Assembly (NCBI GenBank): GCA_030430575.1
Contig: JAUIKF010000008.1
Coordinates: 21,074-85,073 of the forward strand
Length of the DNA: 64,000 bases
From: Bacteroidia bacterium
Lineage (GTDB): Bacteria; Bacteroidota; Bacteroidia; J057
Direction of reading: 5' to 3'
Positions within the stretch are counted from its first letter, which is position 1. Every line of letters begins with the position of its first letter. The notes below the pieces were generated by a model. That model ran no database searches and had not been told where the DNA came from. It worked only from the letters and a program-made list of their open reading frames with translations. The position numbers and the translations under genes are program-made. Positions 6,422-29,924 of the stretch are shown here, one piece after another.

Positions 6422-6660
6422 GGAGACCGCTCGGGCTTCGAAGACTCAGCCCTCGCTGCGAGAAGCGAGACCGTTCGGGCTGCACCCTCACTGCGAGATC
6501 GCTCGGTTCGAAGACTCACCTCGCTGCGAGACAAGAGAGAAGTCTTTGCCTTTAGTCTCGTAGTGAGTCTTCGAGCGGTCTCGGTTCTCGCAGTCAGGAG
6601 CTCCGCGACGAACGATCTCGCAGTGAGCGCAGCGAACGGTCTCTAAACCAGACTCCTTTT
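6421..6660. repeat. Composite palindromic GC-rich intergenic repeat element (family A)
   Basis: Built from units such as 'gagaccgctcgg', 'cttcgaagactc', 'ctcgcagtgag' and 'gaacgatctcgcag'. About 85% identical to the 8655–8903 copy. Imperfect terminal inverted repeats. Confidence 0.85.
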
Positions 6661-7077: not shown

Positions 7078-7262
7078 TCCCTACGGTCGCTGCGAGAGGC
7101 GAGACAATTCGGGCTCTGCCGAAAGGCAGTTCTTCTTGTCTCAAAGCGAGGGCGAGTCTTCGAGCCCGAGCGGTCTCGGTTCTCGCAGTGAGGAGCTCAG
7201 CGACGAACGATCTCGCAGCGAGGGTGAGTCTTCGAGCCCGAGCGGTCTCTTCTCAAAAAAAA
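7078..7262. repeat. Family-A palindromic repeat element
   Basis: Uses the same unit set ('gagtcttcgagcccgagcggtctc' appears twice). Immediately precedes the MATE start codon. Confidence 0.8.
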
Positions 7263-7282
7263 ACCTTAAGTTTGCTCCGCAA

Positions 7283-8653
7283 ATGTCCACCGGCCCAGCA
7301 CCAGACCTCAGCCAACGCATCCAGCAAGACGGCCTTTGGCGCCTCATGTGGAAGCTCTCCATCCCCGGCCTCTTGGGGATGTCTGTCAATGCTATCAACA
7401 ACTTTATGGACGCCCTTTTTGTGGGGCGAATGATCGGGGAAGACGCGTTTGCAGCCATTTCGCTGGCGTTTCCCATCATGTTTGTCGTGAGTAGCTTCAC
7501 GGCCATGACAGGGCAGGGGTCATCGTCCTTGCTGAGTAGAGCAATCGGTGCCAAAGACCTTGTCCAGCAGGAAAAAATCTACAGCAATCTCGTGGCACTC
7601 AACCTCATGATCACCTCTCTGCTCATGCTCGCAGGGTGGATATTTGCTCGAAAACTCATTGCCTTTATGGGAGGGCAAGGCCAGGTTTTGGAATATGGGA
7701 CACAATATTTTCGCATTATCGTGCTAGGCTCCTTCTTCCGCTCCTATGCCATCGGCACCAATATGCTCATCCGCGCCGAAGGCAATATGAAACATGCCAT
7801 GCTATTTGCTGCGCTGGCCGCAGGGCTGAATATTTGTCTCAATCCCCTCTTTATCGGGCCATTGGGCTTAGGGATCAAAGGCGCAGGATGGGCCACTGTC
7901 GTCTCTATGGTGTTTTATGGCCTCCTCAACCTCTGGTATTTCACCAAAGGCAAAGTCTCCTTTCCCATCAAACCTTTTGTCCTTTCACTTGACAAACCCA
8001 TCATCAAGGAAGTCATGTCAGTCGGCGTTTCTGCCATGGCCCTCCAGGCCATGTTTTTTGTGCAGCAAGCTGTAGTTTTCAAGTCGGTAGCACATTATGG
8101 CAATGATACAGAAATTGCCCTCATGGGAGCTGTATATCGCATTTTTCTACTTTTGGTGATTCCTTTGGTAGGGATGATGCAGGCCCTTCAAGCCGTAGTA
8201 GGCATCAATTATGGGGCAAAACTATATGGGCGGGTAAAAAAAGCCCTGGGAGTCTTCACCTTTAGTAGCACTCTGTTGCTCACCTGTGTATGGCTGTTTA
8301 TGGAATTATGGCCTCGTTTAATCTTGGGCTTACTACTGCCAAAAGTCGCCTTTGACGCCCATCAAATCTTCCTTTTCAGGGTAGCTATCGCTGCCATTCC
8401 GCTAACGGCCTTGCTATTTGCAGGCATATCATTCTTCCAAGCTCTGGGAGACGGGCTGAAAGCTACTGTCCTTCTGGTCTCCCGCCAAGTAGGCTTATTT
8501 GTGCCTGTGACTCTTCTCCTCCCGCTCTGGTGGGGCCTGGAGGGCATTTTCTATGCTGCTCCCCTCGTAGATTTCTTCGTCGCTTTTGTCCTGGTCTACG
8601 TCCTCTGGAGGCAAATTGTAAAATTGACGCGGGCGGAAGGAAAAAATAAGTAA
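7283..8653 (+). CDS. MATE-family efflux transporter
   Basis: Twelve predicted TM helices with a MATE signature N-terminus '...LWRLMWKLSIPGLLGMSVNAINNFMDALFVGR'. The start was chosen at the ATG (7283) after the repeat; the listed ORF start at 7136 is a repeat-encoded extension. Confidence 0.8.
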   Translation: MSTGPAPDLSQRIQQDGLWRLMWKLSIPGLLGMSVNAINNFMDALFVGRMIGEDAFAAISLAFPIMFVVSSFTAMTGQGSSSLLSRAIGAKDLVQQEKIYSNLVALNLMITSLLMLAGWIFARKLIAFMGGQGQVLEYGTQYFRIIVLGSFFRSYAIGTNMLIRAEGNMKHAMLFAALAAGLNICLNPLFIGPLGLGIKGAGWATVVSMVFYGLLNLWYFTKGKVSFPIKPFVLSLDKPIIKEVMSVGVSAMALQAMFFVQQAVVFKSVAHYGNDTEIALMGAVYRIFLLLVIPLVGMMQALQAVVGINYGAKLYGRVKKALGVFTFSSTLLLTCVWLFMELWPRLILGLLLPKVAFDAHQIFLFRVAIAAIPLTALLFAGISFFQALGDGLKATVLLVSRQVGLFVPVTLLLPLWWGLEGIFYAAPLVDFFVAFVLVYVLWRQIVKLTRAEGKNK

Positions 8654-8654
8654 A

Positions 8655-8903
8655 TTAGACCGTTCGGGCTTCGAAGACTCAGCCCTCACTGCGAGAGACG
8701 AGACCGTTCGCGCCTGCGGCACTCACTGCGAGACCGCTCGGCTCGAAGACTCACCTCGCTGCGAGACAAGAGAGAAGCCTTTGCCTTTAGCCCTTCGATA
8801 AACTCAGGGTAAATCTCGTAGCGAGTCTTCGAGCGGTCTCGGTTCTCGCAGTGAGGAGTTCCGCGACGAACGATCTCGCAGTGAGCGCAGCGAACGGTCT
8901 CTT
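8655..8903. repeat. Family-A palindromic repeat element
   Basis: Near-identical to 6421–6660. Ends 1 nt before the ATG of the CHAT-like/NTPase/WD40 gene. Confidence 0.85.
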
Positions 8904-11900
8904 ATGGCTAACCTACCCGTCATATTCCTGGCATTTGCCAATGAGCGCGAAGACGAAGCGCGCTACTTGCGCGCGCTGGCTGTGGAGCAGCGTCAGTTGA
9001 AAGCTGCCCTGGAACAAGCAGTAGATGCGGGGCTATGCGAACTGGTCATTGAGTCGAATGCGACCATTGATAGCATCATGGATACATTCCAGCGGGCACG
9101 CTACAAAGACCGCATCGCGGTATTTCACTATGGGGGTCATGCAGATGGCTTTCAGCTACTACTTGAAACCGAAACGGATCGCAATGAAGTGGCACATGGA
9201 GAAGGGTTGGTTTCCTTCCTGGGTGGGCAAAATAGCTTACAGCTTATTTTTCTCAATGGCTGCGTGACGCATCAGCAAGCAGAAGAACTCACCCAAGCGG
9301 GGGTTCCCGCTGTTATTGGCACCTCCAATTCCATCAACGACAAGATCGCGACCCAGCTCTCCTCTCGCTTCTATGCAGGCCTGGCCAACGGAGCCACGCT
9401 CACCCGCGCCTGGAAGGAAGCCCAGGATGAGATCAAGATCAAAAAGGGTACGGGAAATGTCCGTGGGCTATATTTCAGGAAAGAAGCCAAAGGGGAAGAA
9501 CGCTTTCCCTGGGAGCTGTATCTGCGCGAAGGAGCGGAGATTGTACAGGAATGGAACCTGCCTGAGGCGGTGGACAATCCCCTCTTTGGCCTCCCAGATT
9601 TACCTTTATCCTACAAACTTCCCGATCAACCGTACCGCTTTTTGGAGCGCTATTATGAGGGACATGCAGAGATTTTCTTTGGGCGTTCTTATGCGATCAG
9701 GGATCTGTATGAACGAACGGCTGCGGCTCAGGGCGCGCCGATCATTTTGTTTTATGGGCAGTCAGGGGTGGGAAAATCGTCTTTACTGGATGCAGGGCTC
9801 TTACCTCGTCTTCGTCAAGACTTCGAAGTGGTATATGCGCGTCGTAGCCAACGAATAGGGCTAGGCGATACGCTTGGCCATGCCTTGGGTCAAGTCTCAG
9901 GTGCTTCTTCTATGGAAGAAGGCCCGATTCGGAGCTTCTCTGGCGCACAATTTAAACGCGAGCAGGAGGCTGAACGCATTCAGCAGATGGAAGCGCTGGC
10001 TGCAGGGATGGAAGGGGAAGCCAAAGCGCAAATCTTGCAGGTACTGGCTGATCTCAAATCCCAAAATGGTCATGCCCCTTCTCCTATTTCACCTACCGAG
10101 CTTCCTCCTACAGACTCCTTATTGGAACAGTGGAAGGCCATAGAGACAGAGACAGGGCGTCCCCTGGTGGTCTTGCTTGACCAGGCAGAAGAAATGTTTA
10201 CCCGGCCCTGGAGCCATCAACAAGATGAGCTTCAGGCGTTTTTAGCGGAGGTAAAGTCTATTTTTGGGCGAGGTGATCGCAGACCCAAAGGCAAATTGAT
10301 CCTCAGTTATCGCAAAGAATACAATCCTGAGATAGAAGAAGCCTTCAAAAAGCAAAAGCTTCCGCGCGAGAAGGTATTCCTCAAACAACTCAGCAAGAAA
10401 GACATCACAGAAGTAGTTCATGGACTTGGCAAAAATGAACGGCTCAAGAACCTCTATCACTTGAGTGTGGAGCCAGGGTTGGGGGAAATGATTGCAGATG
10501 ATTTGTTGGTAGACAAAGACTCTCCTATTGCGCCCGTCTTGCAGATTTTGTTGACAAAAATGTGGCTGAATGTCGAGCGGGACGAAAATCGATATTTTAC
10601 CATCGCCGCATACCAGGACCTGCGAAAGGACGGCATCTTGATGGAGGACTTCCTGGAAGAGCAGCTAGCCAAATGCCGCAGTTGGCGACCTGAGATCGTG
10701 GATTCTGGCCTTGCGCTTGATTTACTCAATTATCATACGACCTCTTTGGGAACTGCTGAAACGCATGACCTAGCCGAAATCCGTGCGCGATATGCCCACC
10801 GTCAGGACGTCCTTGACGACCTGGTCAGCAAACTCAAGGAGCTCTACCTCCTCACCGACGCTGGCGCGGAGATGACAGGCCTGGCTCATGATACCTTGGC
10901 GCCGCTGGTAAAGCAGATGATCAGGAACTCTGATCAGCCCGGTCACCGCGCCTTGCGCATCATCCAGCAGAAGACGCCCGAGTATGTCAAAGATCACGAA
11001 AATGTGATCGATGAAGCAGACCTCAAAATCGTCGAAGCAGGCTACCTAGGCATGCGCATGTGGTCTGATACAGAGCGAGAACTCGTGGAAGCCAGCCGTA
11101 AGAAGCGGGTGAAAGCAGCGCGCTTTCGCAAGAATTTGAGGCGACTGGCGGTGCTGGCAGTGTTGCTGATTTTGATGGGCTTGGTGTGGGCGCTGTATGA
11201 GCAAGGGGTAGCAGTGGAGAAGGCAGAATTAGCCAATAGAAAAACAGCAGAGGCTGATAGTAGTGCACAGGTGGCTATTCAGAAAGCAATTGAGGCAGAT
11301 AGTTCTGAAAAAGCTGCTCGGGCGGCAGAGCAGGTAGCATTAGCGGCAAAACAGGATGCGCTAGATGAAAAGGCTCGGGCTGATAGTGCTAAAAATGCTG
11401 AGGTTGAGGCCAACGCTAGGTTAAAGGAAGCAATAGCAGAAGTGAGGGCTGAAAAGCAACGTGCAGACGAAAGTACGGATGCAGCCATTCGAGCAAATGA
11501 TTCTCTCCAAATACAAAAGGATGTAGCAGAAGAGAAAACAAAACTTGCTAAGACAAACGCCGCCAGAGCCGATTCCCTCCGCGAACTCTCACTCGCCAAA
11601 ACCCTGGCGATCAAGTCCTTAGGCGTAGAACAAGATTCCACTCAAGGCATACTGGCCATGCAAGCCTACGCCTTGAATAAGGCTAAAAATGGGGACCCAT
11701 TGGACCCAGATATCTACCGCGCTTTGCACGATGCATGGCAAACGTTTGAAGGACATCAGCGCAACCAATACCGCGCACACGATAGCAATGCCCAGGTAAG
11801 GGCATTGCGCTACACCTCAAATGGGCGCCTATTTTCTACGGGAAGTGATGGGCGGCTTTTTGAGTGGCAAATTGGTGATGCTTTCACTCCACCAAGAGCC

Positions 11901-12866
11901 AGTCCTCCCCTGACAGAAGTCCCTCAGGTCAACCTGGCCTTGGCAGCCAGTAGCCAGGGAGATTGGCTTGCTGGCACTAACTGGCGGGTAGGGACCTCCA
12001 GCACAAAATCGCTACAGGAATTTCCTGTCGCACAATCTCCCCTGGCTGCGATAGAGATCGGCGCATTTCCTCAAGGCGATGCGCAACAACTAACCTTTTT
12101 GCCTGGCCAAAACGCTTTCTTCTTCACGAGCCGGGCAGACGACACTTTGCGGTATTATCACCTGGACCAAAAGCGCGTAAAGCCCGTCTCAACGACAGGA
12201 GCTATCTCTAGGGCATTGGCTATCAGTCCAGATGGCCGCTGGCTAGCCCTCATCACCGACCGGGCAGATATCCTGCTCTATTCGCTCAATCCCCCTTCCC
12301 TCCCTGACCAATTGCCAGCACCAGAAATCATATTCCATGGCTCCCCCGCTATTGCAGGCAAGCAATATGCGATTGCTTTCAGTAAGTTGATGGCAAACGG
12401 GCAGTATCAGTTGGCTTGTGGGTTGGGCAAAAAGGAGAAAACAGAAATACATTTATTTACCATCAACTCGGTAGGCAGGCGTATCCAGCACGATCATTTT
12501 TTGGGGCACAATGCGCCCATTAACGAAATAGTGTTTCACCCCCAAAGTGCCCTTATGGCATCTGCTAGTCAGGATGGGACGACACGGATTTGGCAGACGG
12601 CCAGGCCGTTGGATTTACCTATTATCCTTGAATATGTCTCTGCCGCCAGCAACCGAAAGGTATGGGCCACGACCCTCAGTTTCAGCCGGGGAGGCAGGGA
12701 GCTCATTACAGGGTATAATGATGGGATGGTCAAGGTATGGCCTGTCTATGCATCAGATATCGCCAAGGAATTATGCCCTTTGCTTCAAGGGAAACAGCTT
12801 TCACAAGAGGAATGGATTCGTTATGCCAATACAACGGAAAAACTGTCTGAATATCAGTGTAATTAA
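8904..12866 (+). CDS. STAND-like signalling protein: CHAT-like (caspase-fold) domain, P-loop NTPase, one TM helix, coiled coil, WD40 beta-propeller
   Basis: The N-terminus carries a His/Cys dyad in the 'VFHYGGHADG' and 'IFLNGCVTH' motifs, a CHAT-like caspase fold. Walker A 'LFYGQSGVGKSSLLDAG'. Hydrophobic helix 'LAVLAVLLILMGLVWALY' at ~aa 750. An Ala/Glu/Lys coiled coil follows. C-terminal WD40 repeats ('DGRLFEW', 'DGTTRIWQ', 'GMVKVWP'). Confidence 0.8.
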   Translation: MANLPVIFLAFANEREDEARYLRALAVEQRQLKAALEQAVDAGLCELVIESNATIDSIMDTFQRARYKDRIAVFHYGGHADGFQLLLETETDRNEVAHGEGLVSFLGGQNSLQLIFLNGCVTHQQAEELTQAGVPAVIGTSNSINDKIATQLSSRFYAGLANGATLTRAWKEAQDEIKIKKGTGNVRGLYFRKEAKGEERFPWELYLREGAEIVQEWNLPEAVDNPLFGLPDLPLSYKLPDQPYRFLERYYEGHAEIFFGRSYAIRDLYERTAAAQGAPIILFYGQSGVGKSSLLDAGLLPRLRQDFEVVYARRSQRIGLGDTLGHALGQVSGASSMEEGPIRSFSGAQFKREQEAERIQQMEALAAGMEGEAKAQILQVLADLKSQNGHAPSPISPTELPPTDSLLEQWKAIETETGRPLVVLLDQAEEMFTRPWSHQQDELQAFLAEVKSIFGRGDRRPKGKLILSYRKEYNPEIEEAFKKQKLPREKVFLKQLSKKDITEVVHGLGKNERLKNLYHLSVEPGLGEMIADDLLVDKDSPIAPVLQILLTKMWLNVERDENRYFTIAAYQDLRKDGILMEDFLEEQLAKCRSWRPEIVDSGLALDLLNYHTTSLGTAETHDLAEIRARYAHRQDVLDDLVSKLKELYLLTDAGAEMTGLAHDTLAPLVKQMIRNSDQPGHRALRIIQQKTPEYVKDHENVIDEADLKIVEAGYLGMRMWSDTERELVEASRKKRVKAARFRKNLRRLAVLAVLLILMGLVWALYEQGVAVEKAELANRKTAEADSSAQVAIQKAIEADSSEKAARAAEQVALAAKQDALDEKARADSAKNAEVEANARLKEAIAEVRAEKQRADESTDAAIRANDSLQIQKDVAEEKTKLAKTNAARADSLRELSLAKTLAIKSLGVEQDSTQGILAMQAYALNKAKNGDPLDPDIYRALHDAWQTFEGHQRNQYRAHDSNAQVRALRYTSNGRLFSTGSDGRLFEWQIGDAFTPPRASPPLTEVPQVNLALAASSQGDWLAGTNWRVGTSSTKSLQEFPVAQSPLAAIEIGAFPQGDAQQLTFLPGQNAFFFTSRADDTLRYYHLDQKRVKPVSTTGAISRALAISPDGRWLALITDRADILLYSLNPPSLPDQLPAPEIIFHGSPAIAGKQYAIAFSKLMANGQYQLACGLGKKEKTEIHLFTINSVGRRIQHDHFLGHNAPINEIVFHPQSALMASASQDGTTRIWQTARPLDLPIILEYVSAASNRKVWATTLSFSRGGRELITGYNDGMVKVWPVYASDIAKELCPLLQGKQLSQEEWIRYANTTEKLSEYQCN

Positions 12867-12904
12867 GGCTTGAAACATGTTCATTCCCAACTACCTATTT
12901 TATC

Positions 12905-14149
12905 ATGTACGCATCCCCATATTCGGTTAGGCTTCTTCTCTTCCTCTGGGTGCTCCTGCTTTTGAGCACTCCGCTCTCTGCTCAGGACGCTATGAACGGT
13001 TGCAACAACGCCTACCCCAGGGCCTTACAAAGCTTCAATGATGGCAACATAGAAGACGCCATACAGTTACTGAATCCCTGCCTTACAGACGTCCGAAAGG
13101 GAGAAGGCCTGACAGGCAACCTGCGTATAGAAGGCCTAAGGTTGTTAACAATCTGTCATCTTTATGTACAGAATGATGCCGAAGCGACCCAAAGAATGAA
13201 AATGCTGCTAAAGGTAGCCCCATCCTATGAAATCAGGAGTACTGACCCGATTGAATTTCGCTATCTCTATTATACTTTTCGCACCGATCCCTTCTTATTT
13301 ATCAATGCTAAACTAAACGCTAACCTCACCTTCCCGATTGTCACCAATAGTTATACAATAGATCACAATCGTGCGGGAGATCGACAAGATGCTTACAGAG
13401 AACGAGTGGACGGAGGCGTACTCCTAGGTATAGATGTTCCCTTAAATAGGCAGGTCATGCCCGCCTTTGGCCAGCGGTTGAAACACCGCGACACCGTAGG
13501 AATTGGATTCTTCTCCCTGCAACTGGAGTTGGCTTATCAGCGGCATAGCTACCTGTATGAGCATGAAATGCATACCGACCCTTCACTCAACCTCAATTAT
13601 ACAACCGTTCTGTTTCGTGAGTCTCAGCAGTGGCTGGAAGTACCTATTGCCCTGAAATATACGCCCCCTTCCAAACGGTCTATCCGACCTGGCTACCGAG
13701 AAGTGGAAGGGTTCTGGTTGTTTAATCGGGTGGTTCCCTATGTCTTTGTGGGAGGAGCGGCTCACGTCTTGCTACAAAGCAAATTCTCTAGCCTCAACCG
13801 AATCGCTGACAACCGGCAATTGAACAATCCCCCCGTTGTGGAACTGACTGTCATTGATCGCAATGACCAAGAGCAGACAACCACCCGCTTACCGCGCAAG
13901 CGCTACAATTTTTCAGTCATGGGAGGGGTCGGTGCCAAATGGTGGGCGGGCCGGGATTATATCACGGCAGAATTGCGCTTCAACCAAAAGCTGGTGAATT
14001 TTATCGATGTTCAAAACCGTTACCAAAATCAAACCTTGTCGCATCTGTTTGGCTATGTCGATAGTGATGCGCTCTTGCAGCATTTTTCTTTTTGGCTAGG
14101 GTATCAACATCCCATTTTTCGACCTAGACAGAAAAAAGAAAAAAAATGA
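12905..14149 (+). CDS. Secreted protein, possible outer-membrane beta-barrel (414 aa)
   Basis: Signal peptide. The second half has alternating amphipathic beta-strand character. Lies 38 nt downstream of the CHAT-like/NTPase/WD40 gene on the same strand. Confidence 0.55.
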   Translation: MYASPYSVRLLLFLWVLLLLSTPLSAQDAMNGCNNAYPRALQSFNDGNIEDAIQLLNPCLTDVRKGEGLTGNLRIEGLRLLTICHLYVQNDAEATQRMKMLLKVAPSYEIRSTDPIEFRYLYYTFRTDPFLFINAKLNANLTFPIVTNSYTIDHNRAGDRQDAYRERVDGGVLLGIDVPLNRQVMPAFGQRLKHRDTVGIGFFSLQLELAYQRHSYLYEHEMHTDPSLNLNYTTVLFRESQQWLEVPIALKYTPPSKRSIRPGYREVEGFWLFNRVVPYVFVGGAAHVLLQSKFSSLNRIADNRQLNNPPVVELTVIDRNDQEQTTTRLPRKRYNFSVMGGVGAKWWAGRDYITAELRFNQKLVNFIDVQNRYQNQTLSHLFGYVDSDALLQHFSFWLGYQHPIFRPRQKKEKK

Positions 14150-14156
14150 AATACGC

Positions 14157-15497
14157 ATGAATTGTATCAGCAATACAGGAATAGAGATAAGGGATAAACG
14201 GGTTGAGAAAATAGCTCCCCTTAAAAGCTATGCTTCTTTCATCAAGCTGGCAGCCTTGCAGGTGATCGCTTTGCTTTTGTGGGGTTGTTCGCCTTCTGAC
14301 ACCCCTTCCCCCGATCAGGCAGATCGCTTTATCAAAATATTCGGCGGAGCAAACAATGAATTGGCAGCAGGGCTCTCACTAGACGATGATGGTGGATACA
14401 GGATTCTTGGAACTACCTATTCTACCGAAGACCCTATGGAAGCGAACAGGCATTCGGATATCTATATCGTGAAGACAAATGTGTATGGCGATGCGCAATG
14501 GTCTCGCAGGTTTGACTTTCAGCAAGGCCATGACTTCGCTCATGACCTGACAACCTTTGGTAGCCACAACATCCTTTTGGCTTCTGCCACAGATACCGCA
14601 ACTGACCACAAACACCTATGGGTCCTGGACCTAGACTTTGCGGGGGCTAGTCAAACGCTGGTGGATTTCACCTTCTCCGTTGAAGGTCATGACTTCGAAG
14701 GGGCCTCAATTCTTCCCTTAGATGATGGGGTCCTCATTTTGGGTACGACAACGTGGGTCGATACCGAAAAGGCTACGCCTTCGGGAGGCTTTGTCGGTGA
14801 CAGTACAGACATCTTTTTGGCACAATTCTCTCTTCAAGGGGATACCCTTTGGAGCCGAAGATTGGGGTTTGAAGGCACGGACCGTGGGGTAAAAGTCCTG
14901 GCCCAGGCTGAAGGGGGGTATGTATTCCTTGCCCAGACAGATTTTGGGGAGGATCCCGACGCCGCAGGCTTGGGGACTTACCTTGCCATTACCAATTCTT
15001 TTGGCGTACCTACGATCACCCGACGGATAGAGCAGGTGATCCCAGGGGATCTGCAAGCCACGGCTGACGGAGGGTATGTCATGATTGGGACTTCTTACCA
15101 ATCGGGAGATTCCTTGCTCTATTTAGCTAAGCTAAATCCCTGGCTGGAACTGGTATGGACGCAAACTTACGAAGGTCTTGGGACCGCCAGTGGGCGGTCT
15201 TTGGCCGTGGTTCAGGCGGAAGGTTCTGGAGAACGCTATTTACTTGGAGGCCATACCCGTACTGCTCAAGCAGAGGATTCAGACCTTTACCTCACCTTAG
15301 TAGATGAATCAGGGGTCGAGCTCTGGACAGATGATGGCAAAGGCCTAAGGACGTATGGAGGCCCACAAGATGAAATCTGTCGCGCTGTAAAAATGACGGA
15401 TGATGGTGGCTTTGCAGTGCTCAGCAGTCAGGAATTCGGAGAAACCTTTATCATGAATTTGTTGAAGGTAAATGCGGAGGGGCGGTTGGATCCTTGA
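14157..15497 (+). CDS. Lipoprotein with beta-propeller-like repeats (446 aa)
   Basis: Lipobox 'LLWGCSPS'. Repeated 'DGGY…LGTT / DGGYV' blades. Lies 7 nt after the preceding gene. Confidence 0.6.
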   Translation: MNCISNTGIEIRDKRVEKIAPLKSYASFIKLAALQVIALLLWGCSPSDTPSPDQADRFIKIFGGANNELAAGLSLDDDGGYRILGTTYSTEDPMEANRHSDIYIVKTNVYGDAQWSRRFDFQQGHDFAHDLTTFGSHNILLASATDTATDHKHLWVLDLDFAGASQTLVDFTFSVEGHDFEGASILPLDDGVLILGTTTWVDTEKATPSGGFVGDSTDIFLAQFSLQGDTLWSRRLGFEGTDRGVKVLAQAEGGYVFLAQTDFGEDPDAAGLGTYLAITNSFGVPTITRRIEQVIPGDLQATADGGYVMIGTSYQSGDSLLYLAKLNPWLELVWTQTYEGLGTASGRSLAVVQAEGSGERYLLGGHTRTAQAEDSDLYLTLVDESGVELWTDDGKGLRTYGGPQDEICRAVKMTDDGGFAVLSSQEFGETFIMNLLKVNAEGRLDP

Positions 15498-15612
15498 GAC
15501 CGCTCGCCCTTCGGGCTCGCTGCGAGAGGCGAGATCGTTCGCGCCTTCGGCACTCACTGCGAGACCGCTCGGCTCGAAGACTCGCCGAGCTTCGAGACAA
15601 GAGACTTCCTTC
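15486..15612. repeat. Family-A palindromic repeat element (short copy)
   Basis: 'gagaccgctcg…ctcgctgcgagaggcgagatcgttcgcgcc…cactgcgagaccgctcggctcgaagactc'. Confidence 0.8.
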
Positions 15613-15787: not shown

Positions 15788-18700
15788 ATGAAATACCTCT
15801 CCATACTTTTATCTCTACTTTTTCTCTCCCACCACCTTTCGGCCCAAACACGGACTGTCACCAGCACAGCAGACGCTGGCGCAGGCAGCCTGCGAGAAAC
15901 CATTAGCCTCGCCAACTCAGGCGATAGCATTGTGATTGATGCGTCCTTGGCAGGGGATACAATCTTTTTAGCAAGCGAAATTTTACTCGATAAAAACCTG
16001 ACTATCAGTGGCCTTGGCACTACATGTCCTGGAAGCATTACCCTTGACGCCCAAAGCAATGGACGTATTTTTCGTGTCGACACATTTGCAACAGTGGTAA
16101 TCGACCATCTGACCTTTTCCCAAGGCATTGCTGGTGATGGGGGGGCGATATACAATGAAGGAAACTTAACGATTACCTGTGCCTATTTCACCTTAAACAA
16201 AGCCATCTATGGAGGCGCTATTTATTCCATTGCTTCGCCTGGAAATCCTTGTTCCCTGACCCTTACTGACTGTGATTTTCATATCAATGGTTTTTTGGGA
16301 ATATGTGAAGAAGGAGGGGCAATCTTTAACAATGGTCTCCAAGAAAACTGTACGGTCTTGGCTACCGATTGTCGGTTTCGTAACTGTGTCGCCCAGCAAA
16401 TCAATGCCTCTACCAGTGGAGGCGCGATCTTAAACAAGGGGGCTTCTGCGGGTGCTACCTTTAGGAGTTGCATATTTGACGCAAATGGTGTCCTGGCTTT
16501 CAGCTTGCCTTTTTCTTCTCCTGAAAAAGGAATTGGAGGTGCCATTGCGAATATGGGGGGCACCCTTCACTTACTAGATTGCTCTACTATCACCCACAAT
16601 CAAGCCCAAGGCGGCCTTACCTATGGCGGAGCGATCTACAACGATACCGCAAGTACCTGCTCCTTGACCCGTTGTAAGCTATCCAACAATGATACAGGAG
16701 ACCTTGGTGGGGCTATTGCCAATTTTGGTACCCTGACCATATTTGAATCTGAGTTCATCAACAATGTGGCCATTGGCACAGATGGCGTTGGCGGGGGGGT
16801 TTACGAGAGTGGTTTGGGGTCGATTTCGATTCGAAACTCCACCTTCGAGCGCAATAATGCGCTCTCAGATGGCGGCAGCCTTTACCTCAATTATGCTTCT
16901 ACCCAATCAGCTGCCCCAGAGATTCTCAACAATACATTTTCGGCGAATGCAACGGGGAAAAGAGGGGGGGCATTATTCGTTACAGGCCAAAATCAATTGG
17001 CTCTTATCCATTGCACATTTGTCCAAAATACAGCTACTGACTCAGGAGGCGCTATTTATATCACACCATTGCCAGTAGTTTCTCTCCAAAACAACCTCAT
17101 CGCAGACAATGTGTCGAACGGAGGCCCTGACCTGATGGGCCTAAACAACGCTACCATCACCTCCCTTGGCGGCAACCTGATCGGCAATGGTTCGGACAGC
17201 AATATCCCTTTGTTGCCCAGTGATTTGTCAGGCACATTCATCAATCCAATCGATCCGCAAGTAGCGGCTTTAGGCTACTATGGCGGGCCTACCGCCACCC
17301 ATTTTCTAGAATCAACTAGCCCCGCAATAGATGCGGCAGTGGGAATGCCCATCTCCACTGACCAGCGAGGGACACGTCGGACAGCCATCTCCGATATCGG
17401 TGCGTTTGAACTGCATCGGGTAATGCTCAGGCCTGCTGATTCGCTCCACTTATGCATCGGTTCGCCCTTTGCCAAAATGGACAGTATCGTCATTGTAGAC
17501 TCTACGGGAGGCGCTATTCATCCAGGTCCTTCCCAGGCCTTGTTATTGGACCTGCCAGTGGGATTTCGACTGCTCCAGGGACAAGGCGAAGTCACGCTCC
17601 ATGGCAATGGCCTCAGCAATCCCTCTATCTTTGTGAGTGATTCGGTCGTGATTGTCTTCTTTGATCGTTCTACAGAAATCGGATTTCAGAAGATCGTGAT
17701 CAGCGACCTGCTTGTCCGTGCCACTCAGGCAGGCACTGGCAACCTGGTACGGCGCGTCAGCAACGCCGCGATCATTGGAGACTCTCCAATGGATAGCTTG
17801 AGCCACGCTTTTTTAAGTGCTTCGGCGCTGGCTCCTTTACGCCCCCCAGACGCCGTATTTACGGTGTGTGCCGATACAGGCGAAGTGCCTGTAGCCATTC
17901 CCCTCACTTCTCCCCTACTGAATGGCAATGCCATGGTCTGGTATGCTTCCCCAAACGATATAGGGCTTAGCAGCTTAGATACCACAATAGTCTTTAGCAA
18001 TTATCAATTTACTGACACCTGTTATTTTGCCCTACACAACCCTTGCAACCTCTTTTTTTATGTGACTCAAATAGATAACAACGGCTGTGAGAGTCGGCCA
18101 GCGACCATAGAAATAGATGCTAATCCAGTTCCCGATGCGCCAAATCCCCTTTTTTCCGCCGATTTATCCTATTGTGAAGGGACTGCGTCTCCCAGCCTTC
18201 AACTGGTCCCCAATACCGGTGCCACTTACTTTTGGTACGATGCTGGCGGCACTTTGCTAGATAGTACTGTCCTTAGCTCGTATGACCTTGAATTAGATTC
18301 ACTCCAGTTTGATCAAGACTCGAGCTTTGTATTTACGGTAAGGCAAAAAGTCAATGGATGCCTGAGCCGCGATGCACAGCCCTTTACCCTCCTGGGGCGT
18401 GCCAAGCTTCCCATCTCCTTTGAAGCGAAGCACTTGTGTCTAGGAGAATCCACAGACTTTCATGCAGTCGCACCACCGGCGGCGACCTCCTTTACCTGGA
18501 ATTTCTCCAGTGGACTCAATAGTGGCGTTATCCATACGAGCGGCCCAGACACCTCAATCGTCATCCAAAATACAGGGTTTATTGTAATCGAATTGACAGT
18601 AGAAGACTCCTTTGGCTGCAAGAGCAGTTATGAAGATTTTATACTGGTCAAAGACTTAGGGGCAGCATTTACTTGGTCTAGAATCTGTGAGCAGGATATC

Positions 18701-20506
18701 ACCTTGCTGGTGGCTCGGTCTTATCCCTTTTCAGACTCTATCACCTTAGCTACTTCCCAGGGGTTTGAGACATTCAAAGATGAACTCACCTACCTATGGG
18801 ATTATGGCGACCCCACAGACCCTACCCCAGGTATGAACAGAGGTACAGCTCACCGCTATCCCCAAGCCAATCGCTATCTCCCCAAATTGACAGTGACATC
18901 CAGTTATATTAACCTCCATGGAAACTTATCTATAGGCTGCGTAGATAGCGCAATCGAGCAGGTGACCATCCTGCCCGTTATTGACCCCATCGCCGTAGCA
19001 GGAGATACCTTCTACTATGATGGCTTCGAAGACCAGAATCGCGTTAATAGAGAATGGCTCACAGGGGGAAAACTCAACAACTGGGAGGTCGCAAAACCTT
19101 CAGATTCTCTCCTCAACCGCGCAGCCTCGGGCGAATATGCATGGGTCACCGATGCTGACGAAGACTATCCCAATAAAATGAATGCCTGGGTCGCAAGCCC
19201 TTGTTATGACTTGCGTCAGATGAAGCGCCCCATGCTCAGCATGGACCTGGCGGTAGCTACAGAAGCGACGTTTGATGGAGGTTCTATCCAATACACCTCC
19301 GACGGAGGGGTGAATTGGCATTTGTTGGGCACGGTCGGTTCTGGACTTAATTGGTACACAGACCAGAATTTACAGAGCAATCCAGGCTTGCAAGACAACG
19401 TCCGCCACAATGGCTGGAGTGGAAACCTACCCTGGCACACAGTCCGTCAACGGCTAGACCTTGATTCCCTGCTGGCAGGGACGGACAGCCTCCTGCGGTT
19501 CCGCATCAATATGGGCGCTGACTCCAGCGTCACAGGAGAAGGCATCGCCTTCGACAATTTCGCAATTCTGGATCGTACCAGCAAGGTGTTGATCGAGCAG
19601 TTTGTCAATCAGGACGTTCCTCCCGAGGTCTACGCCTTGATCGATTCTAACGAAAAAGACATTCAATACCTCCAATATCATATCTCCTATCCTGACGAAT
19701 CCGACGCTATTTTTGTCGAAAATCAGCGCGGTCCCGACGCCGATGCGCGGGCCTACTACTACGGCATTTCTGGGCCTGCGAATATTGTCTTGGATGGAGA
19801 CGCCCGCTTGACCCCTGCATACGAAACCCTCCAACAAGAGCTGGACCTCAAGATCCTGCAAGATCCTCAATTTGACATCTCGATTCGGGATAATGGCGTG
19901 GCATTCAGTGCCTTACAAGACGTGCAGCGACGAATCGTCCTGCATGTAGCGGTAGCAGAAGACCGGCTACCACAGGGAGGCGGCACGCCGTATCGCTATG
20001 TGGTTCGGAAGCTATTTCCAGATGCAGGTGGGACGGTCGTGGAAGATGGGTTAATCAAAGGAGAAGCCAAATTTGTAGATGTCGCCTGGCGCAATGCGGA
20101 CAGGCCCAGTCCTTCCATCATCCCTAGCAACCGCAGGGATTCCCTTTATTTGATCGCATTTGTGCAGGATGATGTGAGCAAACGCATCTTTGACGTGGCC
20201 ATAAGAAAGGCCAGTCCGCAGATCTTCGAAAGCCGCCTTGGCCAAGGCCCTGACAGCACCTTGCGCTACGCGCTTTTCCCCAACCCCACCGCCGACTGGC
20301 TGGAGGTACACTTCGCGGAGCCGCTTCCAGCGACTGAAACCTGCGCGCTGTACGATCTCCAAGGACGGCGCGTCTTGACGCGCCAGCTAGCGGAAGGGGA
20401 TACGCGTATCCGCCTGGATATGCGCGCACTGGCACAGGGGGTGTATGTCCTAGAGCTACGGCTCAGTGGGGAGGTGCGGAGGGAGAAGGTGATAAGGGTC
20501 GAGTAA
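15788..20506 (+). CDS. T9SS-sorted surface protein with Pmp-type parallel beta-helix repeats (1572 aa)
   Basis: Signal peptide. At least 11 'GGAIYN/GGAIAN' repeats. A MAM-like central region. C-terminal Por-secretion tail '…LFPNPTADWLEVHF…LYDLQGRRV…GVYVLELR'. Confidence 0.8.
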   Translation: MKYLSILLSLLFLSHHLSAQTRTVTSTADAGAGSLRETISLANSGDSIVIDASLAGDTIFLASEILLDKNLTISGLGTTCPGSITLDAQSNGRIFRVDTFATVVIDHLTFSQGIAGDGGAIYNEGNLTITCAYFTLNKAIYGGAIYSIASPGNPCSLTLTDCDFHINGFLGICEEGGAIFNNGLQENCTVLATDCRFRNCVAQQINASTSGGAILNKGASAGATFRSCIFDANGVLAFSLPFSSPEKGIGGAIANMGGTLHLLDCSTITHNQAQGGLTYGGAIYNDTASTCSLTRCKLSNNDTGDLGGAIANFGTLTIFESEFINNVAIGTDGVGGGVYESGLGSISIRNSTFERNNALSDGGSLYLNYASTQSAAPEILNNTFSANATGKRGGALFVTGQNQLALIHCTFVQNTATDSGGAIYITPLPVVSLQNNLIADNVSNGGPDLMGLNNATITSLGGNLIGNGSDSNIPLLPSDLSGTFINPIDPQVAALGYYGGPTATHFLESTSPAIDAAVGMPISTDQRGTRRTAISDIGAFELHRVMLRPADSLHLCIGSPFAKMDSIVIVDSTGGAIHPGPSQALLLDLPVGFRLLQGQGEVTLHGNGLSNPSIFVSDSVVIVFFDRSTEIGFQKIVISDLLVRATQAGTGNLVRRVSNAAIIGDSPMDSLSHAFLSASALAPLRPPDAVFTVCADTGEVPVAIPLTSPLLNGNAMVWYASPNDIGLSSLDTTIVFSNYQFTDTCYFALHNPCNLFFYVTQIDNNGCESRPATIEIDANPVPDAPNPLFSADLSYCEGTASPSLQLVPNTGATYFWYDAGGTLLDSTVLSSYDLELDSLQFDQDSSFVFTVRQKVNGCLSRDAQPFTLLGRAKLPISFEAKHLCLGESTDFHAVAPPAATSFTWNFSSGLNSGVIHTSGPDTSIVIQNTGFIVIELTVEDSFGCKSSYEDFILVKDLGAAFTWSRICEQDITLLVARSYPFSDSITLATSQGFETFKDELTYLWDYGDPTDPTPGMNRGTAHRYPQANRYLPKLTVTSSYINLHGNLSIGCVDSAIEQVTILPVIDPIAVAGDTFYYDGFEDQNRVNREWLTGGKLNNWEVAKPSDSLLNRAASGEYAWVTDADEDYPNKMNAWVASPCYDLRQMKRPMLSMDLAVATEATFDGGSIQYTSDGGVNWHLLGTVGSGLNWYTDQNLQSNPGLQDNVRHNGWSGNLPWHTVRQRLDLDSLLAGTDSLLRFRINMGADSSVTGEGIAFDNFAILDRTSKVLIEQFVNQDVPPEVYALIDSNEKDIQYLQYHISYPDESDAIFVENQRGPDADARAYYYGISGPANIVLDGDARLTPAYETLQQELDLKILQDPQFDISIRDNGVAFSALQDVQRRIVLHVAVAEDRLPQGGGTPYRYVVRKLFPDAGGTVVEDGLIKGEAKFVDVAWRNADRPSPSIIPSNRRDSLYLIAFVQDDVSKRIFDVAIRKASPQIFESRLGQGPDSTLRYALFPNPTADWLEVHFAEPLPATETCALYDLQGRRVLTRQLAEGDTRIRLDMRALAQGVYVLELRLSGEVRREKVIRVE

Positions 20507-24941: not shown

Positions 24942-25110
24942 TGTTTGCGTTTTGTTTTAGCTAGAAACGCAGGGGAGGAGGGATTGTTGGGGGGGAATTT
25001 CTTTTCCCAAGCAACTAATGAACCTACTATCAAGTTTCCCCATAACAAGAGTAAGTGATTTTTCATTTTCCATTTAGTTAAAGTTATGACTTATACAGGA
25101 ATCTTAAACT

Positions 25111-26448: not shown

Positions 26449-26620
26449 GAGAATTCATAAAAATACATTTTTGACTAAAAAATGATGTTTTAAAAACGAT
26501 ATAATCAAGCAATCCTGAAATAGTGTCAGTCTATTCATCAATATTATCGACTAATTAGTCGAATGGTAAACCTATGCATTAATTAATACAGATTTATAAA
26601 ATGATAATATATTAATTATT

Positions 26621-29278: not shown

Positions 29279-29528
29279 AAATTTTCTCATAATAACTCTA
29301 AAAGTATTTTTATGGAACTTTATGAATTGGTATGATAAACGCATTAAAATTTGGTTGTGCTATATTTTCAATGCTGTGTATTGTTTCAAAATTTCCCTAA
29401 ATCAGTTTGGGGCCGCTAAATAGCTACTTTTCAGATTCCTACTGAAAGAAAAATAAAAATCATTCTTAAATATTCACAAATGCGAATCAAATACATACCC
29501 CACTTCTCCAAGTTCCATGCTAAAGATA

Positions 29529-29852: not shown

Positions 29853-29924
29853 AGGAAAATTATTAATTATTGATTGAGTGATGAGTCTCCTCCTGATAGT
29901 CAAATTTGACTTTTCCCTCATTGC

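What the first reader, a model, noticed from the sequence alone, without database searches (positions are those of the whole stretch)
8655..15497. Transmembrane STAND-like protein (CHAT-like caspase fold, P-loop NTPase, TM, coiled coil, WD40) in an apparent operon with an outer-membrane protein and a beta-propeller lipoprotein
The domain order places a caspase-like His/Cys dyad (HYGGHADG / NGCVTH) and a Walker-A NTPase on the cytoplasmic side. One TM helix and ~190 aa of Ala/Glu/Lys coiled coil follow, with a WD40 propeller predicted to lie outside the membrane. Two envelope genes follow at 38 nt and 7 nt spacing on the same strand: a predicted beta-barrel protein and a propeller lipoprotein. 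This looks like an envelope-spanning sensing module coupled to an intracellular protease/NTPase effector. Soluble STAND/CHAT conflict systems are known, but a membrane-threaded version with dedicated outer-membrane partners is not a described system. The start codon abuts a palindromic repeat element.
Basis: partly seen in the sequence, partly recalled or inferred. Interest (0 to 1): 0.72.

Follow-up and report, generated by a model that had tools for sequence, protein, structure and literature searches.

The report
Membrane-spanning caspase/ATPase sensor with outer-membrane partners
A Bacteroidota gene cluster pairs an inner-membrane protein (a caspase-like protease and ATP switch inside the cell, a propeller domain on a long stalk outside it) with an outer-membrane barrel, a propeller lipoprotein and often a secreted surface protein. 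This looks like an undescribed envelope-spanning version of NLR-type cell-death or signalling switches.

Summary
Gene A starts at 8904, not 8655; 8655-8903 is a non-coding copy of a repeat found across the window. The cluster also has a fourth conserved gene, D, at 15788-20506.

Gene A (1320 aa) has this order of parts:
- CHAT protease with the His79/Cys120 dyad
- nSTAND1 NTPase
- one transmembrane helix
- a helical stalk of about 140 aa
- a 7-bladed WD40 propeller

The helix and its K/R-rich inner flank are present in 118 of the 120 best homologues, so membrane threading is a family trait. The parts after the helix vary: WD40, LRR, FGE-sulfatase or GH19.

Gene B is an outer-membrane barrel of the OMP_b-brl_2 type with a helical N-terminal domain. 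Gene C is a CylK/SBBP-like propeller lipoprotein. B and C follow A in nine independent loci with unrelated flanks. One of these was found by searching from C; its A lacks CHAT. A type IX secretion (T9SS) sorted surface protein, D, follows C in five lineages and in none of about 115 control loci. Most other family members lack B and C.

The best reading is an outside-in, envelope-spanning NLR-like sensor that drives a cytoplasmic protease. The cue is unknown, there is no defence-island context, and I found no description in the literature I searched. I rate it a new variant of a known kind.

The parts
8655..8903 (.). Non-coding cluster of nested inverted and direct repeats directly upstream of gene A. 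It is one copy of an interspersed repeat family, not part of the gene.
   Evidence: sequence. (12 inverted-repeat pairs, arms up to 30 nt). (core CTCGCAGTGAG: 31 matches in the window against 0.6 expected).
8904..12866 (+). Gene A: 1320-aa CHAT / nSTAND1 / transmembrane helix / helical stalk / WD40 protein.
8928..9434 (+). CHAT (caspase-fold) protease domain, aa 9-177, with His79 and Cys120.
   Evidence: PF12770, 41.6 bits against cutoff 24. (PDB 8tl0, E = 1.3e-10, dyad positions aligned). (H79 and C120 invariant in 17 sequences).
9630..10898 (+). nSTAND1 STAND NTPase module, aa 243-665. Walker A is G285-S293; Walker B is D426/E429/E430.
   Evidence: PF20703, 104.5 bits against cutoff 27.1. 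(invariant columns).
11145..11201 (+). Single transmembrane helix, aa 748-766, preceded by KKRVKAARFRKNLRR.
   Evidence: Kyte-Doolittle 2.36, the only segment above 1.2. (equivalent helix in 118/120 homologues, 4-10 K/R upstream). (continuous helix 722-799 in the model).
11202..11624 (+). Ala/Glu/Lys-rich helical stalk, aa 767-907, with Ala-heptad periodicity. A helical hairpin domain (aa 911-949) follows.
   Evidence: Ala every 7 columns in the alignments. (periodicity peaks at 3.5 and 7.0; first Pro at 932). (helices 722-799 and 813-907).
11766..12743 (+). Seven-bladed WD40 beta-propeller, aa 955-1280, predicted to lie in the periplasm. Two short C-terminal helices follow.
   Evidence: WD40, 67 bits. 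(pLDDT mostly 85-95). (Foldseek against G-beta and other WD40 structures, E about 1e-15, target TM-score 0.65-0.8).
12905..14149 (+). Gene B: 414-aa secreted protein. It has a signal peptide, a helical TPR-like N-terminal domain with two conserved Cys (C33, C59), and a C-terminal outer-membrane beta-barrel (OMP_b-brl_2 type).
14157..15497 (+). Gene C: 446-aa lipoprotein (lipobox LLWGC, Cys44) with a CylK/SBBP-like beta-propeller.
   Evidence: (weak hits to an SBBP lipoprotein model and the delta-60 repeat). (Cys44 invariant). (CylK, E = 4e-18)..
15516..15563 (.). Two more copies of the interspersed repeat core, in the 290-nt gap between C and D.
   Evidence: In other loci the C-D gap is only 8-18 nt.
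15788..20506 (+). Gene D: 1572-aa surface protein with a T9SS type A sorting domain, a choice-of-anchor Q domain and PKD/Chlam_PMP elements. It is conserved downstream of C in five lineages.

Best explanation
This is a conserved three- to four-gene envelope-spanning module built around an NLR-like STAND protein.

**Layout.** Gene A sits in the inner membrane through one helix, N-terminus in. Its CHAT protease and nSTAND1 ATPase are cytoplasmic. A helical stalk of about 140 residues (about 20 nm if extended) holds a WD40 propeller across the periplasm. There it meets B, an outer-membrane barrel with a periplasmic helical domain, and C, a beta-propeller lipoprotein. In many lineages there is also D, a large surface protein exported by the type IX secretion system (T9SS).

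**Proposed working (inferred).** An event at the cell surface or outer membrane changes the B/C/D assembly. The WD40 propeller senses this change. The signal passes through the stalk and transmembrane helix and releases the STAND module to bind ATP and oligomerise. Proximity then activates the CHAT protease, which cleaves cytoplasmic targets. The outcome would be growth arrest, cell death or a signalling output.

**Shown:** the domain identities, the conserved transmembrane helix with its positive-inside flank, the conserved catalytic and Walker residues, and the co-conservation and tight spacing of A-B-C(-D).

**Inferred:** the physical contact between the proteins, the direction of signalling, the cue and the protease substrates.

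Topology:
- A has one hydrophobic helix with 9 K/R before it and 3 after it.
- The same arrangement is present in 118/120 homologues.
- An NTPase needs cytoplasmic ATP (established knowledge).
- Modules after the helix in paralogues include a GH19 lysozyme/chitinase-like domain, FGE-sulfatase and LRR. These fit an extracytoplasmic sensor position.
- WD40 propellers do work in the Bacteroidota periplasm, for example PorE (PMC12773672).

Stalk and propeller:
- The model supports both, and Ala heptads are seen.

Module conservation:
- B and C orthologues lie directly downstream of A in the window, L001, L002, L003, L005/6, L007, L120, L122 and L124. Flanks are unrelated. A-B gaps are 4-154 nt and B-C gaps are -14 to 25 nt.
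- The reverse search from the best independent C homologue (P0130) landed on nSTAND1-TM-WD40 + OMP_b-brl_2 + C + T9SS protein.
- In that locus the cytoplasmic part of A is divergent and lacks CHAT, while the TM-stalk-WD40 part aligns in full. The periplasmic module therefore travels with B/C/D and the effector is swappable, as in NLR-type proteins.
- D-like ORFs occur only in B/C-positive loci: 5 lineages, and none in about 115 other loci totalling 1.57 Mb.

Envelope location of the partners:
- B has a signal peptide; 55/62 family members hit PF13568; two Cys are at least 90% conserved.
- C has a lipobox Cys and a propeller.
- D has a T9SS sorting domain.

Divergence rates:
- The periplasmic part of A (22-30% identity) diverges about as fast as B and C (20-28%). 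The cytoplasmic part is much more conserved.
Against: - No experiment exists and no topology predictor was available. Topology rests on hydrophobicity, charge bias and context.
- No complex prediction could be run, so A-B-C-D contact is inferred from gene linkage only.
- There is no PADLOC hit and no defence-island context. Flanks are housekeeping or transport genes.
- Most members of the wider A family, including WD40-bearing ones, have no B/C next to them: 0 of about 69-81 evaluable metagenome loci, plus L004, L009-L011, L121 and L123. The partners are therefore not needed by the family as a whole.
- B/C-positive proteins are not a single clade in either the N-terminal or the C-terminal tree.
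- The B model is of low confidence (pLDDT 52).
- The window's own B scores below the Pfam cutoff (17.8 against 27).
- The direction of signalling is not constrained by any result.
Confidence: 0.5

Rival explanations
1. Inside-out or structural role. The STAND ATPase uses cytoplasmic ATP to assemble, anchor or regulate an outer-membrane complex (B/C) that holds or controls the T9SS-exported surface protein D, for example an adhesin used in gliding, aggregation or filament formation. The CHAT domain would be an accessory or processing domain. The module would then be a cell-surface maintenance or adhesion device rather than a sensor that triggers proteolysis.
For: - D is conserved in five lineages and is specific to B/C-positive loci.
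- D carries surface-anchoring features.
- The L124 version keeps TM-stalk-WD40 + B + C + D but has no CHAT.
- There is no defence context.
- Flanks are ordinary envelope or metabolic genes.
Against: - STAND NTPases are known as signal-dependent oligomerisation switches, not as mechanical or assembly motors (established knowledge of the class).
- The CHAT dyad and Walker motifs are strictly conserved in 17 homologues.
- D is absent next to the module in L002, L005 and L122.
- N-terminal effector swapping with a constant sensor is the usual NLR pattern.
Confidence: 0.2
2. B, C and D are an independent outer-membrane/surface module that is syntenic with A for regulatory or historical reasons, with no physical or functional coupling.
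For: - Most A-family members lack B/C.
- More distant C-like lipoproteins occur elsewhere without A, as in P0141/L126.
- T9SS cargo genes are common in Bacteroidota.
Against: - The same gene order, strand and tight or overlapping junctions are seen in nine loci with unrelated flanks, at only 20-28% B/C identity.
- Every B hit in 1.57 Mb of fetched loci is next to an A gene.
- The reverse search from C recovers A and B.
Confidence: 0.1
3. The hydrophobic segment is not membrane-spanning, and the whole of protein A is cytoplasmic, like classical caspase-STAND-WD40 proteins.
For: - No dedicated topology predictor could be run.
- WD40 sensors of most described STAND proteins are cytoplasmic.
- Conserved Cys pairs in the C-terminal tail are present in only 24 of 70 similar-length homologues.
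Against: - The segment is a 19-residue stretch with Kyte-Doolittle 2.36, with no charged residue until its final position (Glu766).
- It is conserved in position in 118/120 homologues, with a strong K/R bias on the N-terminal side.
- The partners are all envelope proteins.
- Paralogues carry a GH19 lysozyme/chitinase-like domain or FGE-sulfatase after the helix, and some carry further multi-TM regions.
Confidence: 0.05

Closest known systems
nSTAND1-clade STAND NTPase conflict proteins (Pfam PF20703; named in Kaur et al. 2021, PMC8195603; related systems in Kaur et al. 2020, PMC7159879)
   Same: - A central nSTAND1 NTPase.
- An N-terminal caspase-superfamily (CHAT) effector.
- A C-terminal repeat or FGE-type 'sensor'.
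- Enrichment in filamentous or multicellular-habit bacteria.
- The effector domain is variable while the sensor side is lineage-constant.
   Different: - In this clade a transmembrane helix and a long stalk separate the NTPase from the sensor, so the sensor is predicted to be periplasmic.
- A subset is linked to dedicated outer-membrane, lipoprotein and T9SS-cargo genes.
- None of this linkage is described in the passages I searched in these papers.
Antiviral STAND/NLR-like proteins (Avs, bNACHT)
   Same: - A tripartite effector / STAND NTPase / sensor logic, with oligomerisation-driven effector activation.
- Kibby et al. (bioRxiv 10.1101/2022.07.19.500537) note that some transmembrane bNACHT proteins may sense intramembrane or periplasmic signals.
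   Different: - The NTPase clade is different (nSTAND1, not NACHT or Avs).
- No PADLOC model matches.
- There is no defence-island context.
- It has a single-pass topology with an extracytoplasmic WD40 domain.
- It has conserved envelope partner genes.
CHAT proteases activated by oligomerisation or ligand (solved 'CHAT domain-containing protein' PDB 8tl0; CRISPR-associated TPR-CHAT/Csx29, recalled from memory)
   Same: - Caspase-fold CHAT domain with aligned His/Cys positions.
- The protease acts as the output of an upstream sensor.
   Different: - Here the activator would be a fused STAND NTPase and a trans-membrane signal, not a cyclic-nucleotide sensor or a CRISPR effector.
- The substrates are unknown.
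Trans-envelope signalling or coupling systems: Rcs (RcsF lipoprotein / OMP / IgaA), TonB-dependent transducer / anti-sigma pairs, and surface propeller lipoprotein / barrel pairs such as BtuG-BtuB (all recalled from memory, an analogy only)
   Same: - An outer-membrane barrel plus a lipoprotein is coupled to an inner-membrane protein that reaches across the periplasm and reports to the cytoplasm.
   Different: - No homology was detected.
- The cytoplasmic output here is an ATP-gated STAND switch fused to a caspase-like protease, not a phosphorelay or sigma factor.
- A T9SS surface protein is often part of the cluster.
EACC1-caspase two-gene membrane-associated system (Kaur et al. 2020)
   Same: - A caspase-superfamily protein is linked to a membrane element.
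- nSTAND1 is sometimes present in those systems (PMC8195603).
   Different: - That system needs a 5' EACC1 single-TM gene. Here the 250 nt upstream are non-coding repeats.
- Here the transmembrane helix is inside the STAND protein itself.
- Taxonomy differs: that system is mainly in actinobacteria.

Membership tests
nSTAND1 STAND NTPase (PF20703) | Match to the family HMM above the curated cutoff | tested here: met
   104.5 bits against cutoff 27.1, aa 243-665, profile positions 1-340 of 379.
nSTAND1 STAND NTPase (PF20703) | Intact Walker A and Walker B motifs | tested here: met
   GQSGVGKSS (285-293) and LLDQAEE (D426, E429, E430) are invariant in 17 homologues.
nSTAND1 STAND NTPase (PF20703) | Nucleotide-dependent oligomerisation | not testable with these tools
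   This needs biochemistry or cryo-EM.
CHAT caspase-fold protease (PF12770) | Match to the family HMM above the curated cutoff | tested here: met
   41.6 bits against cutoff 24, aa 9-177.
CHAT caspase-fold protease (PF12770) | Catalytic His and Cys at the positions seen in a solved CHAT structure | tested here: met
   His79 (GGHADG) aligns with GHG, and Cys120 (NGC) aligns with NAC, of PDB 8tl0, E = 1.3e-10. Both residues are invariant.
CHAT caspase-fold protease (PF12770) | Proteolytic activity and substrates | not testable with these tools
WD40 beta-propeller | WD40 repeat HMM match and a seven-bladed propeller fold | tested here: met
   (67 bits against cutoff 27). (pLDDT 85-95 in the propeller). 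(G-beta, TLE1 and WDR61, E about 1e-15, target TM-score up to 0.81).
Known anti-phage defence systems (PADLOC-DB v2; Avs/bNACHT-type STAND defence) | Match to a defence-system protein model | tested here: not met
   only P-loop-level hits at E >= 0.008 for A, and none for B, C, D or the upstream neighbours.
Known anti-phage defence systems (PADLOC-DB v2; Avs/bNACHT-type STAND defence) | Defence-island neighbourhood | tested here: not met
   flanks are MatE, SDR, AdoHcyase, LpxD, PBP, TonB receptor and similar genes.
Outer-membrane beta-barrel, OMP_b-brl_2 (PF13568), for gene B | HMM match above cutoff | tested here: inconclusive
   The window's B scores 17.8 bits against cutoff 27. However, 55 of 62 aligned family members match, best E = 6e-22, and orthologues in L002, L005 and L124 carry the Pfam hit.
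Outer-membrane beta-barrel, OMP_b-brl_2 (PF13568), for gene B | Signal peptide and beta-barrel fold | tested here: inconclusive
   A signal peptide is evident. The AlphaFold2 model shows long beta hairpins at 151-399, but at low confidence (pLDDT 52).
SBBP/CylK-like beta-propeller lipoprotein, for gene C | Propeller homology and a lipobox cysteine | tested here: met
   (family profile against the CylK propeller, E = 4e-18). (weak LipL53 SBBP lipoprotein and delta-60 hits). (the lipobox Cys is invariant in the six aligned orthologues; a Cys closing the N-terminal hydrophobic leader is seen in seven of the eight listed loci, and L120's was not resolved).
T9SS type A cargo, for gene D | C-terminal sorting domain above cutoff | tested here: met
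   (PF18962, 33.5 bits against 27). (TIGR04183, 31.2 bits against 23; choice-of-anchor Q, 54.9 bits against 25).
EACC1-caspase two-gene system | A 5' gene encoding the EACC1 single-TM protein directly upstream of the caspase gene | tested here: not met
   the 250 nt between MatE and A hold only repeats and no ORF.

The most novel reading that the evidence does not exclude
A-B-C-D is a previously undescribed, four-component, envelope-spanning NLR-like surveillance system. A T9SS-anchored surface protein and an outer-membrane barrel/lipoprotein pair would report events at the cell surface, such as phage adsorption, contact-dependent attack or non-kin contact. The report would pass through a periplasm-spanning WD40 stalk to a cytoplasmic STAND ATPase, which fires a caspase-like protease. 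That would be innate-immune or allorecognition sensing from outside the cell, before anything enters the cytoplasm.
Probability: 0.3. Interest if true: 0.85.

Novelty: new variant of a known kind. Interest (0 to 1): 0.62.

Why it matters
Bacterial STAND/NLR-like proteins characterised so far sense their triggers inside the cytoplasm. A conserved module that wires such a switch, with a caspase-like output, to outer-membrane and cell-surface proteins would extend NLR logic to surveillance of the cell envelope or exterior. This would parallel the way transmembrane receptors in eukaryotes feed death and immune pathways.

The module also gives a concrete, testable set of four genes. The B family alone has about 1000 clusters at E <= 1e-10. 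That makes it a usable entry point for asking what these abundant Bacteroidota 'CHAT/WD40' proteins do, and how filamentous or gliding bacteria couple surface events to cell fate.

Tried and rejected
- **Finding the window's own contig:** an exact look-up of the window's protein A failed.
- **Word-indexed search with the B profile:** this found only 3 proteins. The exhaustive HMMER search was needed instead.
- **Metagenome scans for B:** A 4-sequence alignment matched 84 stretches, none confirmed. The reverse test from B could therefore not be done at scale.
- **Genome scan with A:** It gave only 5 close relatives plus cyanobacterial STAND-WD40 proteins.
- **B profiles against PDB sequences:** no significant hit (best E = 0.019 to a TPR region and 0.12 to BamG).
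- **AlphaFold2 for B:** with only three sequences the model was of low confidence, so I ran no fold search on it.
- **Promoter and terminator scan:** uninformative. The promoter consensus is not suited to Bacteroidota, and no terminator lies between A, B and C.
- **Conserved C-terminal Cys pair in A as a periplasm marker:** it is present in most of the nearest clade, but in only 24 of 70 similar-length homologues. I treat it as weak evidence.
- **Idea that the upstream palindrome is a regulatory element of this gene:** rejected, because the repeat is interspersed across the window.
- **EACC1 system and PADLOC defence families:** considered and rejected (see the membership tests).
- **First NJ tree:** it timed out and was redone on shorter regions.

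Full report
**1. What is in the sequence**

The + strand carries four consecutive ORFs:
- A, 8904..12866 (1320 aa)
- B, 12905..14149 (414 aa)
- C, 14157..15497 (446 aa)
- D, 15788..20506 (1572 aa)

The stretch 8655-8903 lies after the stop of an upstream MatE gene (7136..8653). It contains no ORF, only nested direct and inverted repeats. The repeat core CTCGCAGTGAG occurs 31 times in the window against 0.6 expected. Its clusters lie mostly between or beside the large ORFs: 6452-6627, 7182-7222, 8685-8885, 15516-15563, 44956-45110, 45997-46157 and 52957-53096. It is therefore a genome-wide REP/MITE-like element and not a feature of this gene. The A-B gap is 38 nt and the B-C gap is 7 nt, as reported.

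**2. Protein A**

Pfam gives these domains:
- CHAT, aa 9-177 (41.6 bits, cutoff 24)
- nSTAND1, aa 243-665 (104.5 bits, cutoff 27.1)
- WD40 repeats (67 bits)

The N-terminal 240 aa match the solved 'CHAT domain-containing protein' 8tl0 at E = 1.3e-10. His79 and Cys120 align with its GH and C positions. In an alignment of 17 homologues at 38-71% identity, H79, C120, Walker A (G285-S293) and Walker B (D426, E429, E430) are invariant.

The only strongly hydrophobic stretch is aa 748-766 (Kyte-Doolittle 19-residue mean 2.36). Nine K/R lie in the 15 residues before it and three after it.

An AlphaFold2 model of aa 701-1320 (16-row alignment, mean pLDDT 80) shows the following:
- a continuous helix 722-799 that runs through the hydrophobic segment
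- a second long helix, 813-907
- a helical hairpin domain, 911-949
- a beta-propeller, 955-1280
- two short C-terminal helices

Foldseek matches the propeller to G-beta and other seven-bladed WD40 proteins (E about 1e-15, target TM-score 0.65-0.81). The stalk is Ala/Glu/Lys-rich. Ala recurs every seven alignment columns, with periodicity peaks at 3.5 and 7.0 residues. About 140 helical residues after the membrane would span roughly 20 nm if extended. That is of the order of a Gram-negative periplasm; this is an inference from general knowledge.

**3. The membrane helix is a family trait**

A word-indexed search returned more than 1300 homologues at E <= 1e-10, mostly unnamed or named 'CHAT domain-containing', 'AAA family ATPase' or 'WD40 repeat protein'. 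They come from Bacteroidota: Cytophagales, Flammeovirgaceae, Saprospiraceae and Thermoflexibacter.

In 118 of the 120 best hits, a single hydrophobic helix lies about 88 residues after the conserved LAHDTLAP motif. It has 4-10 K/R in the 15 residues upstream and 0-6 downstream. What follows the helix varies: WD40, LRR, FGE-sulfatase, a GH19 lysozyme/chitinase-like domain, nothing recognisable, or further multi-TM regions.

The NTPase needs cytoplasmic ATP and the charge bias points N-in. The variable C-terminal modules are therefore predicted to be extracytoplasmic. A periplasmic WD40 is plausible in this phylum, because the T9SS component PorE has one (PMC12773672, found).

**4. Partners B and C**

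*Protein B.* B has a signal peptide, a helical N-terminal domain and a beta-rich C-terminal part. Its own Pfam hit to OMP_b-brl_2 is sub-threshold (17.8 bits). An exhaustive HMMER search of 1.84 billion representative proteins found a family of 169, 985 and 1930 clusters at E <= 1e-30, 1e-10 and 1e-3 respectively. Members are mostly 340-390 aa and match over their full length. Of 62 aligned members, 55 hit PF13568 (best E = 6e-22) and 17 hit PF13505. Two cysteines in the N-terminal domain (C33, C59) are at least 90% conserved, which suggests a periplasmic disulfide. The AlphaFold2 model is weak overall (pLDDT 52). It does show a better-predicted helical domain at 36-127 and long beta hairpins at 151-399.

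*Protein C.* C has a lipobox whose Cys is invariant in the six aligned orthologues; a Cys closes the N-terminal hydrophobic leader in seven of the eight listed loci, and L120's was not resolved. Its family profile matches the beta-propeller of CylK (E = 4e-18). It also has weak NCBIfam hits to an SBBP propeller lipoprotein and to the delta-60 repeat.

**5. Co-conservation**

B and C orthologues lie directly downstream of an A homologue, on the same strand, in these loci:

| Locus | A homologue (identity to window A) |
|---|---|
| L001 | P0003 (71%) |
| L002 | P0008 (42%) |
| L003 | P0011 (42%) |
| L005/L006 | P0019 (38%) |
| L007 | 45% |
| L120 | P0012 (42%) |
| L122 | P0018 (40%, Flammeovirgaceae MAG) |

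Apart from L001, which is a close relative, the flanks are unrelated. The B and C proteins align over their full length at only 20-28% identity. A-B gaps are 4-154 nt and B-C gaps are -14 to 25 nt.

The reverse test also worked. The best C homologue outside the training set (P0130) lies in L124. The gene order there is HAMP-SpoIIE, then nSTAND1-TM-stalk-WD40 (1040 aa, no CHAT), then OMP_b-brl_2, then C, then a T9SS protein. In that A protein the cytoplasmic part matches the family profile only patchily, but the TM-stalk-WD40 part aligns throughout. A B family representative (P0186) shares its contig length (41,759 bp) with A homologue P0007. That suggests one more positive locus, by inference only.

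**6. Limits of the linkage**

The following A-family loci have no B or C nearby:
- P0013 (L004), P0014 (L121) and P0022 (L123)
- three closer relatives from genomes (L009-L011)
- all 80 metagenome loci fetched with the conserved A region

Among the A-family ORFs across all fetched loci, positive loci included, 81 have at least 3 kb of downstream sequence.

In NJ trees of the N-terminal and the post-TM regions, every tested member of the window's own clade (P0001-P0012) is positive. P0018, P0019 and the L124 protein sit in other lineages, with negatives between them. A more distant C-like lipoprotein (P0141) occurs without A or B.

B/C linkage is thus a property of a subset of the family.

**7. 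A fourth gene**

D carries a T9SS type A sorting domain, a choice-of-anchor Q domain and PKD/Chlam_PMP elements. Homologous proteins (25-33% identity over 600-1100 residues) follow C on the same strand in the window/L001, L003, L007, L120 and L124. A BLAST of D against every ORF of all 128 fetched sequences (1.57 Mb) found D-like proteins only in those B/C-positive loci.

The C-D gap is 8-18 nt in L003 and L124. It is 290 nt in the window, where two repeat copies are inserted. D is absent next to the module in L002, L005 and L122.

**8. Context**

No PADLOC model matches A, B, C, D or the upstream genes. The window's neighbours are a DUF3686/DUF7902/AAA giant ATPase, MatE, and DUF4249 plus a TonB-dependent receptor. 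There is no defence-island signal here or in the related loci.

**9. Interpretation**

*What is shown:*
- A is an NLR-like STAND protein with an intact caspase-fold protease and ATPase.
- A has a conserved single-pass membrane helix and a stalked WD40 propeller.
- In a subset of lineages, A has conserved, tightly linked genes for an outer-membrane barrel, a propeller lipoprotein and often a T9SS surface protein.

*What is inferred:*
- The WD40 propeller contacts B, C or D near the outer membrane.
- A surface or outer-membrane event is relayed through the stalk and transmembrane helix.
- ATP-dependent oligomerisation of the STAND module activates CHAT by proximity, and CHAT cleaves cytoplasmic targets.

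Two further results fit a shared, co-evolving sensor module with a swappable effector, as in NLRs. The periplasmic half of A, B and C diverge at similar fast rates. The TM-stalk-WD40 + B + C + D set also persists with a different, effector-less cytoplasmic half.

The main rival is an inside-out or structural role in displaying or regulating the surface protein D. The conservation of D and the lack of defence context speak for it. The known role of STAND modules as signal-gated switches and the strictly conserved catalytic dyad speak against it. Mere synteny and an all-cytoplasmic topology are unlikely.

**10. Comparison with what is known**

- nSTAND1 was named by Kaur et al. 2021 (PMC8195603). 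That paper describes caspase, TIR and trypsin effectors and repeat or FGE sensors. The passages I retrieved do not describe this single-pass topology with envelope partners.
- Kaur et al. 2020 (PMC7159879) describe membrane-proximal conflict systems (iSTAND, GAP1-N2, EACC1). None has this gene set, and the EACC1 gene is absent here.
- Asplund-Samuelsson et al. 2012 (PMC3501461) catalogued metacaspase architectures with transmembrane helices. They noted 28 metacaspases in the Saprospiraceae member *Haliscomenobacter*.
- Kibby et al. (bioRxiv 2022) remark that some TM-containing bNACHT proteins may sense periplasmic signals.
- Doré et al. 2024 (PMC10907252) predict periplasmic sensor domains for some STAND targets of diversity-generating retroelements.

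The idea of a membrane-spanning STAND is therefore not new. I did not find the conserved A-B-C(-D) module in the library I searched. That library does not cover subscription-only papers.

**11. Verdict**

I class the finding as a new variant of a known kind: an NLR-like STAND/CHAT system with an envelope-spanning sensor module. Interest is moderate to high, and the mechanism remains inferential.

Noticed in passing
window 6452-6627, 7182-7222, 8655-8903, 15516-15563, 44956-45110, 45997-46157, 52957-53096: An interspersed, palindromic repeat family lying mostly between or beside the large ORFs. The core is CTCGCAGTGAG, with units about 30-37 nt apart, often in inverted clusters. There are 31 core matches against 0.6 expected. 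It looks REP/MITE-like and may be useful as a lineage marker.
   Followed up: partly
window 1523-6421 (+): A 1632-aa protein with DUF3686 ('ATPase involved in DNA repair', E = 2e-189), DUF7902 and a C-terminal AAA+ module. It lies two genes upstream of A. It has no PADLOC hit and its function is unknown.
   Followed up: partly
window about 24000-32000, ORF 26621-29278 (+): A low-GC stretch (0.35-0.45 against about 0.50 elsewhere), which may be a horizontally acquired island. Its 885-aa ORF weakly matches the C propeller profile (E = 1e-11) and DUF4394.
   Followed up: no
window 55085-62710 (-): A giant 2541-aa ORF. I did not analyse it.
   Followed up: no
L124 1749-13526: A variant of the module in which the STAND protein has no CHAT or other N-terminal effector (1040 aa). 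A HAMP-SpoIIE (PP2C phosphatase) gene lies 70 nt upstream on the same strand and could be an alternative output in trans.
   Followed up: partly
L005 5794-7644 (-) and L005 1-1386: A stand-alone Peptidase_C14 metacaspase (616 aa) is divergently transcribed from the A homologue. A Pkinase-AAA_16-GAF-guanylate cyclase giant protein lies nearby.
   Followed up: no
homologues P0068, P0111 (FGE-sulfatase), P0099 (Glyco_hydro_19), P0093/P0104/P0114 (LRR), P0089/P0113/P0115 (extra multi-TM regions), P0059 (second N-terminal NTPase): The same CHAT-nSTAND1-TM chassis carries very different modules after the transmembrane helix. This suggests a large repertoire of predicted extracytoplasmic sensors in Bacteroidota.
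   Followed up: partly
L054, L055, L083, L012, L020 (two A-family genes each); L078/L079/L102: Several contigs carry two adjacent or nearby paralogous STAND-TM genes. This points to local expansions of the family.
   Followed up: no
L011 (Candidatus Thiosymbion ectosymbiont, Gammaproteobacteria): A close relative of A (47% identity in the best segment, 1489 aa) lies outside Bacteroidota and has no B/C. This may reflect horizontal transfer.
   Followed up: no
window A aa 1290-1320 and homologues: A pair of Cys about 28-32 residues apart in the C-terminal tail (LC...C near the end) is present in most of the window's own clade, but in only 24 of 70 similar-length homologues. Other clades have 5-7 Cys there. 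This may be a disulfide or a metal site.
   Followed up: partly
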